NCBI GenBank assembly: GCA_963668015.2 | Contig: CAXXCR010000012.1 | Coordinates: 162,892 to 226,891 of the forward strand | Source of the DNA: an uncultured Ilyobacter sp. | GTDB taxonomy: Bacteria; Fusobacteriota; Fusobacteriia; Fusobacteriales; Fusobacteriaceae | Reading direction: 5' to 3' | Length of the DNA: 64,000 nucleotides | Shown here: positions 9,101 to 56,705 of the stretch, one piece after another | How the letters are laid out: every line of letters begins with the position of its first letter | Numbering within the stretch: position 1 is the first letter of the stretch | Made by a program: the position numbers and the translations under genes | Notes under the pieces: generated by a model | What the model was told of the DNA's origin: nothing | Databases searched by the model: none | What the model saw: the letters and a program-made list of their open reading frames with translations, nothing else

Positions 9101-9515
9101 GTACGCCTTCGACCAAACGGCTGATTTCGAATACGGTGCCGGCGAATGGATAAAAACTGAAACCGAAAGGGAGCATGAGCTTGCCATGCAGACGAAAATA
9201 GGAGATCCTAGCAGATCTTGGAAGCTTAAACTATTTACCAGACTTGATGAAGACTCCGCAAAAGATGATGACGGAAAACTTTTTGACGAGTACGGGGTGG
9301 AACTTGGTAAAGAGAGAGAGTTTTACGAACTTTCGGTGGCGTTTAAAAATGAGTGGGACAAGACCACAGAGGATTACGAGTGGACGGTTTCGTTTGAATT
9401 TGCACTGTTGACATTCCCGAACATGCCGATATTCGGAGCTGAAAAGTCTTATGATGCAAGCTGGAGACCTTTGTTTATGGGTAGCGGAGTAGATATAGAC
9501 AGTTATGTGGATTAG
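6135..9515 (+). CDS. lptD: LPS-assembly outer-membrane protein LptD/OstA-like (oversized, highly acidic)
   Basis: 1126 aa with a signal peptide. N-terminal OstA-like segment (ITAEGGVNFKFDNIRLKAYEIDRD). LptD-type motif LWLPWYSINLRPGSEVPLFPVFGSDEDYGFYTSWGLIYG. Long alternating Y/D/E-rich stretches consistent with a beta-barrel. Confidence 0.75.
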   Translation: MSKKLNFGLLFLLGSMTFSQENMETTSFVDEVTIDLKDEKITAEGGVNFKFDNIRLKAYEIDRDTENNIVEARKDVIAQIKEENSDVKFETGSLKLDLNEKKFYFADGLGRLKVDTGAEASDDKIYFGGKSGEGTEEKVTVKDAWMTTTRKVLEVEDPKDSQYHIAASEIVVEPNEKASFYDNRLYIGDREILWLPWYSINLRPGSEVPLFPVFGSDEDYGFYTSWGLIYGKNSRFFKGGIAPKFADELGLLIGRFENRWQPTDKTWGQLNLTDTLVYKKDSDIDDRWDMDYTQVYESSGGDIEFSYRNVTANNWEQLEKLRDEKEDDGEYTESDPRPSGSENIQFYTLDSDVKGAGSGKDIDFYSSMYLVDEKDILQEVVDDELEDASYLSVSDHDLYTDLEFKKDNDDYAVSANYHYLDDLDAGSSPEDLQSKREDFGFGIELKDYKFSAKYSEENGDEYRGLRYWERDPNLKELLELDYVPWTVPLYDEAESKKSELKLGEYGFLGTELSLDYENKHEEKTLNTDDDSLRGFDTENERDSQYNRFEDLVYKNVDEESFGGTVSYDSLKLRVSTGRTEEEIWDREGIYSYTDFGAGDAYDVYENESDFVQFQVEEQDLPLWVLGSLGAGYTLRMDEYDEGDETERHEFYISHKKSFETGEDSSLANSFKYSESYNQYSLDDRDSVDVDADEAARLKNRDDYKQYTDTLEFEFGEKSAAYTFDYKERFDPFRDGKEGDVLGNQFRFDFGENHSLNLASNLDKTDKNDFENSKGEIYDIDLDSNAYSLEYEYGGNKVYYRGEEIDYGLIGKNADATDATDDVDENLLEAIYGYELSRGDDKWNFEYKVGESERYNLSSDVIDLDSKNNGYSVSYLDGGQVENFYKINYEVYDKLEADYLDGDKSYQEDLVSLRYEYRNKGETEEGETARVDLKSIREEAAELPDYKNFFAVSLLARRHKEYYDQSGDFFDSLKESEVRLEAGYNRLKLGYAFDQTADFEYGAGEWIKTETEREHELAMQTKIGDPSRSWKLKLFTRLDEDSAKDDDGKLFDEYGVELGKEREFYELSVAFKNEWDKTTEDYEWTVSFEFALLTFPNMPIFGAEKSYDASWRPLFMGSGVDIDSYVD

Positions 9516-9525
9516 GAATTATTTC

Positions 9526-9554
9526 TTGACATATGGTCTTAAAAATGTTTTAAT
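9526..9554 (+). promoter_or_regulatory. Sigma70-like promoter P1 for the thrS-upstream leader unit
   Basis: TTGACA (9526-9531), 17-nt spacer, TTTAAT (9549-9554), with an extended -10 TG at 9546-9547. Confidence 0.5.
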
Positions 9555-9585
9555 TGGTGTAATCTTATTTAAGAGGAGAATTTAT

Positions 9586-9627
9586 ATGTTAGAACTTTTA
9601 ATCTCAACAACGGAAACCACAGACTAG
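9586..9627 (+). CDS. Candidate Thr-rich leader peptide (MLELLISTTETTD)
   Basis: GAGGAG RBS (9573-9578) lies 7 nt before ATG 9586. 13 codons, with 4 Thr codons at 9607-9612 and 9616-9621, stop TAG 9625-9627. Sits between promoter P1 and a strong terminator, upstream of thrS. Confidence 0.35.
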   Translation: MLELLISTTETTD

Positions 9628-9708
9628 GGTTTGTTCCTTTTTAGGTGCAAGCCCGCTGACAGTTTCAAGAGTTTGTGCCTTTGGTTGAGATTAAAGTTTT
9701 GTTGATTG

Positions 9709-9747
9709 AGGCCATTTGGGCGGTTCGCCTAAATGGCCTGTTTTGTT
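9709..9747 (+). terminator. Strong intrinsic terminator in the thrS upstream region
   Basis: 14-bp stem AGGCCATTTGGGCG (9709-9722) / CGCCTAAATGGCCT (9726-9739) with one G-T pair and loop GTT, followed by GTTTTGTT. Confidence 0.75.
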
Positions 9748-9765
9748 ATTCAGCCCTTTTAAAAC

Positions 9766-9794
9766 TTGAAAAAATAGTGGATATACTTTATAAT
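9766..9794 (+). promoter_or_regulatory. Sigma70-like promoter P2 proximal to thrS
   Basis: TTGAAA (9766-9771), 17-nt spacer, TATAAT (9789-9794). Lies downstream of the terminator and about 55 nt before the thrS start codon. Confidence 0.55.
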
Positions 9795-9848
9795 ATTCTA
9801 TATTTATAAATTGAAATGATTAAGAATTAGCATACATGAGGAGGAAAG

Positions 9849-11768
9849 ATGATTAAGGTAAGTTTGCCAAGTGGTGATGTTAAGCAATTTGAAAATGCGG
9901 TTAATATGTTTGAAATTGCAAAGAGTATAAGCAACTCCCTTGCGAAAAAAGCTCTTGCTGCAAAAGTGGACGGGGAAATGGTTGACATGAGATATATCCT
10001 AGACAAGGATGCAAGTGTTGAGATTATTACTACGGAAACAGAAGAAGGGGTTGAAGTTATAAGACACAGTGCCGCGCATTTGATGGCACAGGCAGTTATC
10101 AGGTTGTTTCCTGGAACTAAGGTAGCTATAGGTCCGTCAATAGAAAACGGTTTCTATTATGATTTTGATCCTAAAGAGCAGTTTGTAGAGGGAGACCTAG
10201 AGAAAATAGAAGCTGAGATGAAGAGAATAGTAAAAGAGGATATCAAAATAGAGAGAGTCGAGATGCCCAGAGAAGAGGCGATCAAGTATTTTGAGGATCT
10301 TGGGGAAGAGTATAAAGTTGAGATAATAAAAGAGATAGCAAAAGGTGAAATGCTGAGTTTTTACAAGCAGGGTGATTTTATAGATCTTTGTAGAGGGCCA
10401 CATGTGCCATCCACAAAGTATTTAAAAACATTTAAGTTGAGATCACTTGCAGGTGCTTACTGGAGGGGAAGCTCTGACAATAAAATGCTTCAAAGGATAT
10501 ACGGTTTTGCATTTGCAAGCGACAAGGAGCTAAAGACTCACCTGAAATTCCTTGAAGAGGCTGAAAAAAGAGACCATAGAAAACTTGGAAAAGAGCTTGA
10601 ACTGTTTTTCATGTCCGACTATGGACCGGGATTCCCGTTCTTTATGCCTAAGGGGATGGAGTTAAAAGATACACTGATGGATTTGTGGAAGAGAGAGCAT
10701 AAAAAAGCAGGGTACAGCATGATACAAACTCCCATAATGCTTAATAAAGAACTTTGGGAGACATCAGGGCATTGGTTCAATTATAGAGAGAACATGTACA
10801 CTTCGGAAATAGACGAAAATGAATTTGCAATAAAACCAATGAACTGTCCTGGAGGAATGTTGGCTTATAAAAACGGGCTTCATTCGTATAAAGATCTTCC
10901 TCTTAGAGTGGGAGAGTTCGGCCACGTTCATAGGCATGAGTTTTCAGGAGCCTTACATGGGTTGTTCAGAGTAAGATCATTTACTCAGGATGATACGCAT
11001 GTATTTATGACAAAAGACCAGATAGAAGATGAAGTAATCAGAATAATAGATCTGTATGATAAGTTTTATACATTGTTTGGTCTTAGCTACCAGATAGAGT
11101 TATCTACAAAGCCTGAAAAAGCTATAGGTTCTGACGAAATTTGGGAGATTTCCGAAATAGCCCTTGCAAATGCAGTAAAAAGATCTGGAAAAGATTATAA
11201 ACTTAATCCTGGGGACGGAGCGTTTTATGGACCTAAGTTAGACTTTAAATTAAAAGATGCTATTGGAAGAATATGGCAGTGTGGAACTATACAGCTTGAT
11301 ATGAATCTTCCTGAAAGATTTGACCTGTTCTATATAGGCGAAGACGGAGAAAAACATAGACCTGTAATGATACACAGAGCTATGTACGGAAGTATAGAAA
11401 GGTTTATGGGTATTCTTATAGAGCACTATGCCGGAGCTTTCCCTCTATGGCTTGCACCTACTCAAGTAAAAATACTTACTATAAACGACGACGTTGTTCC
11501 GTATGCAAAAGAGGTTGCTGAACTCTTGGAAGCTGAAGGTATAAGGGTAGAGATTGACAGCAGAGCCGAGAAGATAGGTTATAAAATAAGGGAAGCAAAC
11601 GGGAAATATAAAATACCTGTACAGCTTATAATTGGTAAGTCTGAAGTGGAAAACAAAGAGGTAAATGTAAGAAGGTTCGGATCAAAAGACCAGGCTACTC
11701 AAAATCTGGACGAGTTTATTGCTCAGATAAAAGAGGAAGCAAAAGTAAAATTTGACGGGGATAAGTAA
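9849..11768 (+). CDS. thrS: Threonine--tRNA ligase
   Basis: 639 aa. TGS N-terminus, editing-domain HSAAH motif, class II core (FRVRSFTQDDTHVF, GAFYGPKLDF), C-terminal anticodon-binding domain. GAGGAGG RBS. Confidence 0.97.
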   Translation: MIKVSLPSGDVKQFENAVNMFEIAKSISNSLAKKALAAKVDGEMVDMRYILDKDASVEIITTETEEGVEVIRHSAAHLMAQAVIRLFPGTKVAIGPSIENGFYYDFDPKEQFVEGDLEKIEAEMKRIVKEDIKIERVEMPREEAIKYFEDLGEEYKVEIIKEIAKGEMLSFYKQGDFIDLCRGPHVPSTKYLKTFKLRSLAGAYWRGSSDNKMLQRIYGFAFASDKELKTHLKFLEEAEKRDHRKLGKELELFFMSDYGPGFPFFMPKGMELKDTLMDLWKREHKKAGYSMIQTPIMLNKELWETSGHWFNYRENMYTSEIDENEFAIKPMNCPGGMLAYKNGLHSYKDLPLRVGEFGHVHRHEFSGALHGLFRVRSFTQDDTHVFMTKDQIEDEVIRIIDLYDKFYTLFGLSYQIELSTKPEKAIGSDEIWEISEIALANAVKRSGKDYKLNPGDGAFYGPKLDFKLKDAIGRIWQCGTIQLDMNLPERFDLFYIGEDGEKHRPVMIHRAMYGSIERFMGILIEHYAGAFPLWLAPTQVKILTINDDVVPYAKEVAELLEAEGIRVEIDSRAEKIGYKIREANGKYKIPVQLIIGKSEVENKEVNVRRFGSKDQATQNLDEFIAQIKEEAKVKFDGDK

Positions 11769-40271: not shown

Positions 40272-40319
40272 AAAAAAGAAGACTTTGTGAATTTTAAAAC
40301 TCACAAAGTCTTCTTTTTT
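40272..40319. terminator. Long hairpin terminator downstream of the small minus-strand gene
   Basis: AAAAAAGAAGACTTTGTGA (40272-40290) pairs with TCACAAAGTCTTCTTTTTT (40301-40319). Confidence 0.7.
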
Positions 40320-56680: not shown

Positions 56681-56705
56681 AGGCACCCTCAGGGTGCCTT
56701 TTTTA
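56681..56705 (+). terminator. Intrinsic terminator after glyA
   Basis: AGGCACCCT-C-AGGGTGCCT followed by T6. Confidence 0.8.

What the first reader, a model, noticed from the sequence alone, without database searches (positions are those of the whole stretch)
9526..9794. Thr-codon-rich 13-aa mini-ORF, long-range helix and strong terminator upstream of thrS: leader-peptide attenuator or independent sRNA
Seen in sequence:
- A promoter P1 (TTGACA-17-TTTAAT with an extended -10 TG).
- A GAGGAG RBS and ATG 9586 opening the ORF MLELLISTTETTD. Four of its 13 codons are Thr (ACA ACG at 9607-9612, ACC ACA at 9616-9621).
- ORF nucleotides 9593-9608 (AACTTTTAATCTCAAC) are complementary to 9684-9698 (GTTGAGATTAAAGTT).
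- That long helix encloses nested helices CACAGAC (9618-9624) / GTTTGTG (9671-9677) and 9627-9637 / 9644-9654.
- A 14-bp GC-rich terminator with T-tract follows (9709-9747).

Established knowledge: amino-acid operons (thr, trp, his) and E. coli pheST (pheM leader) use cognate-codon-rich leader peptides for ribosome-mediated attenuation. Known thrS controls are a T-box in Bacillus and a translational operator in E. coli.

Inference: a ribosome stalled on the Thr codons would occupy the 5' arm of the long helix and could remodel the leader. That would be an unusual control mode for a threonyl-tRNA synthetase.

Caveats: I could not identify a convincing antiterminator pairing by eye. A near-consensus second promoter P2 (TTGAAA-17-TATAAT, 9766-9794) lies after the terminator, so the unit may instead be a stand-alone ~180-nt sRNA or micropeptide gene.
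Basis: partly seen in the sequence, partly recalled or inferred. Interest (0 to 1): 0.65.

Follow-up and report, generated by a model that had tools for sequence, protein, structure and literature searches.

The report
Threonine leader-peptide attenuator before thrS
Upstream of the threonyl-tRNA synthetase gene of this Fusobacteriales bacterium lies a short threonine-rich leader reading frame, a folded RNA and a terminator that probably raise synthetase transcription when charged threonine tRNA runs low; the mechanism is a known kind, but it has not been described for this gene in this phylum.

Summary
The RNA fold is far more stable than shuffled sequence (z -6).

The window comes from a Fusobacteriales bacterium whose ThrRS is 82% identical to that of Hypnocyclicus thermotrophus. 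The same architecture lies directly upstream of thrS in five diverged lineages:
- a TTGACA promoter;
- a Shine-Dalgarno site 7-8 nt before the ATG;
- a 13-16 codon reading frame whose last eight codons hold 2-5 Thr, with varied ACN codons;
- a stop codon abutting a hairpin;
- a long-range helix that pairs the Thr codons with a downstream strand;
- an intrinsic terminator.

The peptide sequence itself is not conserved. In three lineages no promoter-like site separates the terminator from thrS, so the leader must act in cis there.

One appears once the stalled ribosome is masked and the terminator's 3' arm is left out: the released downstream strand pairs with the terminator's 5' arm. This pairing beats shuffled sequence in three of six leaders but not in the window itself. 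E. coli thrL and pheM controls score similarly to those three.

No Rfam family matches.

Verdict: a probable ribosome-mediated, Thr-sensing attenuator, a new member of a known kind. Confidence is about 0.65.

The parts
9526..9554 (+). Promoter P1: -35 TTGACA (9526-9531), 17-nt spacer, -10 TTTAAT (9549-9554), with extended -10 TG at 9546-9547. The presumed start of transcription is about 9561.
   Evidence: Sequence. The perfect TTGACA -35 with a 17-nt spacer is present in all five leader-bearing lineages: 12/12 in L082 and L084, 11/12 in L090 and L107. The window's -10 lacks the A at position 2, so one search did not list it.
9573..9578 (+). Shine-Dalgarno site GAGGAG of the leader reading frame, 7 nt before the ATG.
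   Evidence: The spacing between this site and the ATG is 7-8 nt in all five lineages.
9586..9627 (+). Leader reading frame MLELLISTTETTD plus UAG. Thr codons: ACA ACG at 9607-9612 and ACC ACA at 9616-9621.
   Evidence: Across lineages 19 of 65 codons are Thr, all within the last 8 codons, against a background of 4.6%.
9590..9625 (+). Region 1: the 5' strands of the long-range helices, 9590-9608 (helix P1) and 9618-9625 (helix P2). It lies inside the reading frame and covers the Thr codons.
   Evidence: Minimum-free-energy folds. The ACA:UGU core pairing is kept in 3-4 of 4 lineages.
9627..9654 (+). Hairpin P3, which begins at the last base of the stop codon (9627-9634 with 9647-9654; 9636-9638 with 9643-9645). 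It may be a pause or synchronisation hairpin; that role is inferred.
   Evidence: It is 97.6% paired across 4 lineages, with 2 compensatory pairs. The stop codon abuts it in all five lineages. In L090 and L107 it is followed by a U-rich tail.
9670..9707 (+). Region 2. It holds the 3' strands of P2 (9670-9677) and P1 (9684-9701). In the alternative fold it supplies the antiterminator strand GCCU/UGGUU (9677-9680, 9682-9686) and the inner hairpin 9689-9694 with 9702-9707.
   Evidence: 2:3 structure -15.0 kcal/mol. UGG:CCA is invariant, and two flanking pairs vary but stay paired in 4 of 4 lineages. The pairing is not above shuffles in the window (z -0.3).
9709..9750 (+). Intrinsic terminator (regions 3 and 4): stem 9709-9722 with 9726-9739, loop GUU, and a T-rich tail to about 9750. 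The 5' arm positions 9710-9714 and 9718-9721 are the partners of the antiterminator strand.
   Evidence: -23.4 kcal/mol. It is 92.6% paired across lineages, with 3 compensatory pairs.
9766..9794 (+). Promoter P2: TTGAAA-17-TATAAT, a thrS-proximal promoter downstream of the attenuator.
   Evidence: 11/12. It is conserved, together with its upstream A/T block, in L083. It is absent or weak in L082, L084, L107 and L090.
9838..11768 (+). The thrS Shine-Dalgarno site (GAGGAGG, 9838-9844) and the thrS coding sequence (9849-11768): the regulated gene.

Best explanation
The region is a ribosome-mediated, leader-peptide transcription attenuator that senses charged tRNA-Thr and controls read-through into thrS.

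Proposed sequence of events:
1. Transcription starts at P1 and the 13-codon leader frame is translated.
2. When Thr-tRNA is plentiful, the ribosome clears the Thr codons and terminates at UAG. Region 1 (9590-9625, inside the frame) pairs with region 2 (9670-9701). The terminator (9709-9739) then forms, giving a terminated RNA of about 185 nt.
3. When Thr-tRNA is scarce, for example because ThrRS activity is low, the ribosome stalls on ACA ACG or ACC ACA and masks region 1.
4. The freed region 2 (GCCU/UGGUU plus the inner hairpin) pairs with the terminator's 5' arm as that arm emerges. RNA polymerase then reads through into thrS.

P2 supplies basal thrS transcription in this lineage, so P1 plus the attenuator adds a Thr-responsive component.

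What is shown: the sequence features, the stable fold, the conservation of the architecture, and the Thr enrichment. What is inferred: stalling, the switch between folds, a pausing role for hairpin P3, and the regulatory outcome.
For: 1. The architecture is conserved directly upstream of thrS, in the same orientation, in five lineages. Their ThrRS is only 73-82% identical and their leader sequences are largely different. The lineages are window/L081, L083, L107, L090 and Hypnocyclicus L082/L084-89.
2. Thr makes up 19 of 65 leader codons, and all 19 lie in the last 8 codons. The proteome background is 4.6%, giving a pooled binomial probability of 7e-11. Taken separately, L090 gives 2e-4 and L107 gives 4e-4.
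3. The third codon position varies (ACA, ACC, ACG, ACT) while AC is kept. The remainder of the peptide is not conserved. Both point to selection on Thr codons in a translated frame.
4. Spacing from the Shine-Dalgarno site to the ATG is 7-8 nt in every lineage, and the stop codon abuts hairpin P3 in every lineage.
5. The Thr codons lie in the 5' strand of a long-range helix in every lineage. Leader folds without the terminator give z-scores of -4.9, -1.65, -4.3, -2.8, -4.0 and -5.4.
6. Masking the stalled ribosome and omitting the terminator's 3' arm pairs region 2 with the terminator's 5' arm in all lineages.
7. The 2:3 versus 3:4 energies are -15.0/-23.4 for the window, -13.8/-19.7 for L083, -13.5/-20.9 for L107 and -14.1/-11.6 for L084.
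8. The homologous UGG:CCA core and two co-varying flanking pairs are kept in 4 of 4 lineages.
9. No promoter-like site lies between the terminator and thrS in L082, L084 or L107.
10. The same gene carries a T-box in Firmicutes, detected in 8 of 18 loci, so thrS is a usual target of tRNA-charging control.
Against: - Antiterminator strength is not above dinucleotide shuffles in the window (z -0.3), L090 (+0.2) or L082 (about 0). It is above shuffles only in L083 (-1.9), L107 (-2.0) and L084 (-2.9). Established attenuators give -2.5 (thrL) and -1.5 to -1.9 (pheM) in the same test.
- With the full transcript at equilibrium, the terminator persists under every ribosome mask. This is expected for kinetic switches, but it means there is no thermodynamic proof.
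- Only four or five distinct sequences are available, so covariation has little power.
- A strong, conserved promoter P2 follows the terminator in the window and in L083. thrS therefore does not depend on read-through here.
- The window's P1 -10 (TTTAAT) lacks the key A.
- Hypnocyclicus has only 2 Thr codons.
- In L107 the ATG frame is one base out of register with the Thr run.
- No expression data exist.
Confidence: 0.65

Rival explanations
1. The unit is a stand-alone small gene. P1 to the terminator would give an sRNA of about 185 nt, or a dual-function RNA encoding a 13-aa micropeptide, that acts in trans. thrS would be transcribed from its own promoter P2.
For: The unit has its own promoter and a very strong terminator. 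A near-consensus P2 lies after the terminator and is conserved in L083. The antiterminator is not above chance in the window. Terminated attenuator RNAs can act in trans, as rnTrpL does (PMC6614838).
Against: The peptide sequence is not conserved apart from Thr. The unit is always directly upstream of thrS and co-oriented with it, in five diverged lineages. No promoter-like site lies between the terminator and thrS in L082, L084 and L107. Thr enrichment has no explanation under this reading. No second copy and no related sequence was found elsewhere in the window or in the loci.
Confidence: 0.15
2. The leader is a cis-regulatory element that senses something other than ribosome stalling. Candidates are direct binding of ThrRS (as at the E. 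coli thrS operator), of uncharged tRNA-Thr (as in a T-box), or of another factor. The reading frame would then be incidental.
For: thrS is controlled this way in E. coli and in Firmicutes (established knowledge; T-boxes were detected). The fold is highly structured and conserved.
Against: No T-box match, and no match to any other Rfam family, even at E<=10 in 9400-9900. I saw no conserved anticodon-like loop and no T-box sequence when reading the five leaders. This reading does not explain the conserved Shine-Dalgarno site, the ATG frame, the stop-codon position or the varied ACN codons.
Confidence: 0.1
3. The element is a 3' structure and terminator of the upstream 1126-aa gene, or non-functional intergenic sequence, and the Thr-rich reading frame is a chance feature.
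For: The first terminator after the upstream gene's stop codon (9515) is this one. Two other short reading frames in the window that have a Shine-Dalgarno site reach 3 Thr in 6 codons by chance. Most Fusobacterium and Cetobacterium genomes have only 30-40 nt between the two genes.
Against: A perfect -35 promoter is conserved in all lineages. In L107 the leader lies about 250 nt from a different arrangement of the upstream gene, and in L090 the upstream gene has its own hairpin. So the element travels with thrS. Thr enrichment recurs independently.
Confidence: 0.05

Closest known systems
E. coli pheST attenuator (pheM leader peptide)
   Same: An aminoacyl-tRNA synthetase operon preceded by a leader frame of about 14 codons that is rich in the cognate codon ([14 protein letters not shown]), followed by an intrinsic terminator. 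The logic is alternative pairing of regions 1:2, 2:3 and 3:4, and the feedback acts on tRNA charging.
   Different: The amino acid, the phylum and the sequence all differ, with no homology. Here regions 1 and 2 are about 60 nt apart and enclose an extra hairpin at the stop codon. In the window lineage a second promoter follows the terminator.
E. coli thr operon attenuator (thrL; Rfam RF00506 Thr_leader)
   Same: A leader peptide with Thr codons, including the shared 'ISTT' motif (thrL is [21 protein letters not shown]), followed by a terminator. It senses Thr-tRNA.
   Different: It controls the biosynthetic genes thrABC, not the synthetase. It has 8 Thr plus 4 Ile codons. There is no Rfam match here. 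Its antiterminator strand is a near-exact copy of the terminator's 3' arm, whereas here the mimic is degenerate.
T-box leader upstream of thrS in Firmicutes (RF00230)
   Same: The same gene, the same position, the same output (read-through of an intrinsic terminator) and the same physiological signal (tRNA-Thr charging). Found in 8 of 18 Firmicute thrS loci.
   Different: A T-box binds uncharged tRNA directly and needs no translation. No T-box is detectable in any Fusobacterial locus.
Candidate leader peptides upstream of aaRS genes in Streptomyces (trpS and leuS, PMC1262725; thrL-thrS and alaL-alaS in S. lividans, PMC8079986)
   Same: A short reading frame with cognate codons ahead of a synthetase gene. 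The S. lividans 'thrL' (MKRVRPFLETTPGFVPAR) precedes thrS.
   Different: The Streptomyces thrL has two Thr, is leaderless, and has no clear terminator according to its authors. It is unrelated in sequence and phylum. The present element has a canonical terminator and comparative support.
E. coli thrS translational operator
   Same: Autoregulation of thrS through 5' leader RNA structure.
   Different: That operator acts on translation initiation, through ThrRS binding to anticodon-arm mimics next to the thrS Shine-Dalgarno site. Here the structure lies 100 nt upstream, ends in a terminator and contains a translated reading frame.

Membership tests
Classical ribosome-mediated (leader-peptide) transcription attenuator | A short translated reading frame with a ribosome-binding site, between the promoter and the structural gene. 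| tested here: met
   GAGGAG lies 7 nt before the ATG of a 13-codon frame. The same arrangement occurs in four other lineages. Translation itself was not tested.
Classical ribosome-mediated (leader-peptide) transcription attenuator | Enrichment of codons for the amino acid linked to the regulated gene. | tested here: met
   The window has 4 Thr in 12 codons after the ATG. Across lineages 19 of 65 codons are Thr, against a 4.6% background, and all lie in the last 8 codons.
Classical ribosome-mediated (leader-peptide) transcription attenuator | An intrinsic terminator between the leader frame and the structural gene. | tested here: met
   A 14-bp stem plus T tract at 9709-9750. A terminator is present in all lineages, with compensatory changes.
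Classical ribosome-mediated (leader-peptide) transcription attenuator | Mutually exclusive pairings: the reading-frame region with region 2, and region 2 with the terminator's 5' arm (the antiterminator). | tested here: inconclusive
   The alternative pairing is predicted in all lineages at homologous positions. It exceeds shuffles only in L083, L107 and L084, not in the window, L090 or L082. Known attenuators score z -1.5 to -2.5 in the same test.
Classical ribosome-mediated (leader-peptide) transcription attenuator | Read-through responds to the supply of the cognate charged tRNA and needs translation of the leader. | not testable with these tools
   This needs reporter or term-seq experiments.
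Rfam Thr_leader (RF00506) | A match to the family covariance model. | tested here: not met
   No match at gathering score in the window, and none at E<=10 in 9400-9900.
T-box leader (RF00230) | A match to the covariance model (Stem I with specifier loop, T-box sequence and antiterminator bulge). | tested here: not met
   No match in the window or in 20 Fusobacterial loci. The same search finds T-boxes before thrS in Firmicute loci.
Independent sRNA gene | Its own promoter and terminator, with the downstream gene transcribed independently of it. | tested here: inconclusive
   Met in the window and L083, where P2 is present. Not met in L082, L084 and L107, where no promoter-like site follows the terminator.

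The most novel reading that the evidence does not exclude
This would be a previously undescribed RNA family: a Thr-codon leader-peptide attenuator that evolved in a Hypnocyclicus-related clade of Fusobacteriota to control the threonyl-tRNA synthetase gene. It would fill the role that T-boxes play in Firmicutes. It would be the first comparatively supported case for thrS and for this phylum. In the window lineage it is combined with a constitutive second promoter, giving basal plus starvation-inducible transcription. The abundant terminated leader RNA might also act in trans.
Probability: 0.55. Interest if true: 0.5.

Novelty: new member of a known kind. Interest (0 to 1): 0.45.

Why it matters
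The element would add a third, independently evolved way of coupling thrS expression to tRNA-Thr charging. The two known ways are the E. coli translational operator and the Firmicute T-box.

It would also extend classical ribosome-mediated attenuation to Fusobacteriota. My paper searches found no cis-regulatory leader of this kind reported for that phylum.

The patchy distribution among close relatives makes it a compact case for studying how attenuators are gained and lost. Some relatives have the leader. Others have a simple promoter, or have thrS fused to the upstream gene's transcription unit.

Practically, it gives a defined RNA motif for annotation, and a candidate Thr-responsive switch for genetic tools in Fusobacteria.

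Tried and rejected
- Rfam, at gathering scores on the whole window and at E<=10 on 9400-9900. The only hit was a chance match to a terminator-like Streptococcus sRNA model at 21 bits against a threshold of 55.
- Mobile or repeated element. BLAST of 9516-9848 against the window and all loci found no second copy.
- Genome-collection scan with ThrRS. The clade was recovered instead through protein search plus contig look-ups.
- Metagenome scan with GGTTTG..CCATTTRGG..CCTARATGG. It returned 7 unrelated chance hits and did not even recover the L090 contig, so no extra sequences came from it.
- Search for relatives of the L090 ThrRS. That lineage is a singleton.
- Equilibrium folds of the full leader with ribosome masks. 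The terminator always persists. This is uninformative for a kinetic switch, so I replaced it with folds that leave out the terminator's 3' arm.
- Other leader-type terminators in the 64-kb window. None was found. The candidate at 56681 is simply the terminator of a serine hydroxymethyltransferase-like gene ahead of uvrA.
- Anticodon-arm mimicry for ThrRS binding. Reading the five leaders showed no conserved NGU loop.
- An A/C-rich structural tract as the reason for the ACN run. I rejected this as the main explanation because the third position varies, including G and U, and because the ATG-defined frame reads Thr in four of four lineages with an intact frame.
Full report
**1. The observation**

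Reading 9200-10200 confirms every feature at the stated coordinates:
- TTGACA at 9526-9531, a 17-nt spacer, and TTTAAT at 9549-9554 preceded by TG;
- GAGGAG at 9573-9578;
- ATG at 9586 opening MLELLISTTETTD, with a UAG stop at 9625-9627;
- Thr codons ACA ACG (9607-9612) and ACC ACA (9616-9621).

The RNA 9560-9750 folds to -67.1 kcal/mol. Dinucleotide shuffles give -43.1 +/- 4.0, so z is -6.0 and none of 200 shuffles folds as well.
- 9590-9608 with 9684-9701;
- 9618-9625 with 9670-9677;
- a hairpin at 9627-9654;
- a 14-bp terminator at 9709-9739 with a T-rich tail.

The terminator and P2 (TTGAAA-17-TATAAT, 9766-9794, 11 of 12) are also found by the consensus scan. P1 is not listed by that scan because its -10 hexamer has T instead of A at position 2. 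This is a real weakness of P1 in this lineage.

The downstream gene is thrS (Pfam TGS, tRNA_SAD, class II core and anticodon-binding domains). The upstream gene encodes a 1126-aa protein with no Pfam match.

**2. Known families**

Rfam finds nothing in the 64-kb window at gathering scores. At E<=10 in 9400-9900 it finds only a chance match to a terminator-like Streptococcus sRNA model, at 21 bits against a threshold of 55. The element is therefore neither a T-box nor a member of Rfam's Thr_leader family. It is not repeated in the window or in related loci.

**3. Organism and relatives**

The ThrRS is 77% identical or less to those of Cetobacterium and Fusobacterium. It is 82% identical to that of Hypnocyclicus thermotrophus, so the window comes from a sparsely sampled Fusobacteriales lineage.

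In Fusobacterium, Cetobacterium and Streptobacillus (L001-L012), thrS follows the homologous upstream gene by only about 30-40 nt or has a plain AT-rich spacer. None has a leader. Contig look-ups for the closest ThrRS clusters gave the decisive comparison.

A leader with the same architecture lies directly upstream of thrS in five lineages:

| Lineage | ThrRS identity to the window | Leader peptide |
|---|---|---|
| window and near-identical L081 | about 100% | MLELLISTTETTD |
| L083 | 81% | MLGYFSSTIKTTI |
| L107 | 79% | ..DTTTTLTNK |
| L090 | 80% | MYRQLDTTTTYTKR |
| Hypnocyclicus L082, L084-L089 | 82% | MNKFINIQITYTAK |

Four other relatives at 79% identity (L091, L092, L094, L096) have only a simple promoter 75-145 nt before thrS.

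On a ThrRS neighbour-joining tree, leader-bearing and leaderless lineages are interspersed. The element has therefore been lost or gained repeatedly, or the tree is unresolved.

**4. What is conserved**

Apart from the window/L083 pair, the leaders are hardly alignable, yet they share:
- a perfect TTGACA -35 with a 17-nt spacer. The match to consensus is 12/12 in L082 and L084, and 11/12 with TG in L090 and L107;
- a Shine-Dalgarno site 7-8 nt before an ATG;
- a 13-16 codon reading frame;
- Thr codons concentrated at its end;
- a stop codon that abuts or overlaps the first base of a stable hairpin (P3);
- a long-range helix whose 5' strand contains the Thr codons;
- an intrinsic terminator.

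The peptides are otherwise unrelated. Even between the window and L083, 7 of 13 residues differ, which argues against a functional micropeptide.

Thr accounts for 19 of 65 codons, and all 19 lie in the last eight codons. The background in this genome's proteins is 4.6%, giving a pooled binomial probability of 7e-11. The lineages that do not share the window's sequence give 2e-4 (L090), 4e-4 (L107) and 0.12 (Hypnocyclicus).

The codons vary at the third position (ACA, ACC, ACG, ACT) while AC is kept, as expected for selection on Thr codons in a translated frame.

One caution applies. Within the window alone, 3 of 33 short reading frames with a Shine-Dalgarno-like site reach 3 Thr in 6 codons. 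The single-genome observation would therefore not have been convincing without the comparison.

**5. Cis or trans**

In Hypnocyclicus (L082, L084) and in L107, the only promoter-like site on the thrS strand is P1. Nothing promoter-like lies in the 50-70 nt between the terminator and thrS. There, thrS transcription must pass the leader terminator.

L090 has a weak site, matching 9 of 12. The window and L083 share a strong P2 with a perfectly conserved flank.

The element is therefore best read as a cis-acting leader. In the window lineage it works beside a basal promoter.

**6. The antiterminator**

Full-length equilibrium folds keep the terminator whatever the ribosome mask. That is expected for a kinetic switch: from memory, the E. 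coli trp 3:4 hairpin is likewise more stable than the 2:3 pairing.

I then folded the transcript only up to the terminator loop, masking everything up to 13 nt past the A-site codon. This pairs the strand released from the reading frame with the terminator's 5' arm in every lineage. The pairings are:
- window: GCCU (9677-9680) with GGGC (9718-9721), and UGGUU (9682-9686) with GGCCA (9710-9714), around an inner hairpin 9689-9694 with 9702-9707. This structure is -15.0 kcal/mol, against -23.4 for the terminator;
- L083: GUUUGU-CC-GUGGUU with GGCCAU-GG-GCAAAC (-13.8 against -19.7);
- L107: UGUCUA-GUGG with CCAU-UGGACA (-13.5 against -20.9);
- L084: UUUGUAU-AGGG with CCCU-GUAUAAA (-14.1 against -11.6);
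- L090 and L082 are weaker (-6.3 and -8.1).

In the four alignable leaders these pairings occupy homologous columns. UGG:CCA is invariant, and two flanking pairs change but stay paired in all four. The same strand is the partner of the Thr codons in the terminated fold, where the ACA:UGU core is kept in 3-4 of 4.

P3 is 97.6% paired with two compensatory pairs. The terminator is 92.6% paired with three compensatory pairs. Both are well supported.

**7. How strong is the antiterminator evidence?**

I measured the ensemble free energy gained when the terminator's 5' arm is allowed to pair with the upstream RNA left free by the ribosome. I compared this with dinucleotide shuffles of that upstream RNA.

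| Leader | z-score |
|---|---|
| L084 | -2.9 |
| L107 | -2.0 |
| L083 | -1.9 |
| window | -0.3 |
| L082 | about 0 |
| L090 | +0.2 |
| E. coli thrL (control) | -2.5 |
| E. coli pheM (control) | -1.5 to -1.9 |

Three of the six leaders behave like proven attenuators and three do not. The window is among those that do not. Its absolute gain (-8.3 kcal/mol) is similar to the others, but its G-rich arm pairs almost as well with shuffled sequence.

The antiterminator is therefore plausible, and conserved in position, but it is not statistically established. With only four or five distinct sequences, covariation has little power.

**8. Mechanism proposed (inferred)**

Transcription from P1 is coupled to translation of the leader frame.
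- A ribosome stalled with a Thr codon in its A site covers roughly 9592-9635. That is the 5' strands of the long-range helices.
- Region 2 is then free to capture the terminator's 5' arm as it emerges, and polymerase reads into thrS.
- With ample Thr-tRNA the ribosome reaches UAG and leaves. Helices P1 and P2 re-form behind it (leader domain z -4.9), region 2 is sequestered, and the terminator forms.

Hairpin P3 starts at the stop codon in all lineages and is followed by a U-rich tail in L090 and L107. It is a candidate pause hairpin that would synchronise polymerase and ribosome.

The physiological logic is that low ThrRS activity leads to uncharged tRNA-Thr, then stalling, then more thrS mRNA. 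This is the logic of the Firmicute T-box, which the same Rfam search detects before thrS in 8 of 18 Firmicute loci and in none of 20 Fusobacterial loci.

**9. Comparison with what is known**

Leader-peptide attenuation of synthetase genes is established for E. coli pheST. Candidates have been described for trpS and leuS in Streptomyces (PMC1262725). A transcriptome study of S. lividans listed a 'thrL' (MKRVRPFLETTPGFVPAR) before thrS, with two Thr and no clear terminator (PMC8079986).

A survey of premature terminators does not mention thrS leader peptides or Fusobacteria (PMC2965389). My literature searches found nothing on such a leader in Fusobacteria.

The element is therefore a new family in sequence terms and new for this phylum and gene, but it belongs to a well-known mechanistic class.

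**10. Rivals**

- An independent sRNA or micropeptide gene remains possible for the window lineage because of P2. It does not explain the Thr codons, the non-conserved peptide, the strict linkage to thrS, or the lineages without P2.
- A protein- or tRNA-binding leader is not excluded. It leaves the conserved translation signals unexplained.
- A mere 3' structure of the upstream gene is unlikely, because the element keeps its own promoter and stays with thrS when the upstream context changes (L107, L090).

**11. Verdict**

The switch itself remains unproven. Confidence is 0.65, novelty is a new member of a known kind, and interest is 0.45.

Noticed in passing
L107:1270-1320: In this fifth lineage the ATG frame of the leader stops after 7 codons (GUA UUU UUU UGA C), and the Thr run (GAC ACA ACA ACC ACA UUG ACC AAC AAA UAA) is in the +1 frame. 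A T7 homopolymer error in the long-read assembly is the simple explanation. However, 'UUU UGA C' also resembles a prfB-type +1 frameshift site.
   Followed up: partly
L090:2847-2940: Between the leader terminator and thrS lie a weak promoter-like site (9 of 12), a 19-codon reading frame (MKKRRCNLIGWSIMLLFYC) and a second terminator-like hairpin (GGAGCATCATGCTTC plus T6). This may be a second small unit or a second attenuator.
   Followed up: no
L009:about 2760-2960 (Fusobacterium watanabei): An insert of about 200 nt with a long inverted repeat (CCATTAATGT...ACATTAATGG) lies between the upstream gene and thrS, where sister species have about 20 nt. It is unrelated to the leader and looks like a small inserted repeat element.
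   Followed up: no
L107:1040-1140: An inverted repeat, TTTTGTCACGAAT...ATTCGTGACAAAA, flanks about 70 nt just upstream of the leader promoter.
   Followed up: no
window:6135-9515: A 1126-aa protein with no Pfam match. It has a C-terminal motif (..YEW..LLTFP..IFG..) conserved across Fusobacteriales, and it lies directly upstream of thrS in the Fusobacteriaceae-type relatives examined (L001-L011, L081-L084, L086-L092, L094, L096, L107) but not in L012 or L013. It is probably an outer-membrane or secreted protein of unknown family.
   Followed up: partly
window:45491-45532 and 40273-40318: Two very long perfect palindromes, with 19-bp and 20-bp stems and T or A runs on both sides. They look like bidirectional terminators between convergent genes.
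   Followed up: no
window:11969-12358: A 129-aa reading frame immediately downstream of thrS has no Pfam match. It is conserved in the near-identical assembly L081 but replaced by other genes (Bax1-I, radical SAM) in Hypnocyclicus.
   Followed up: no
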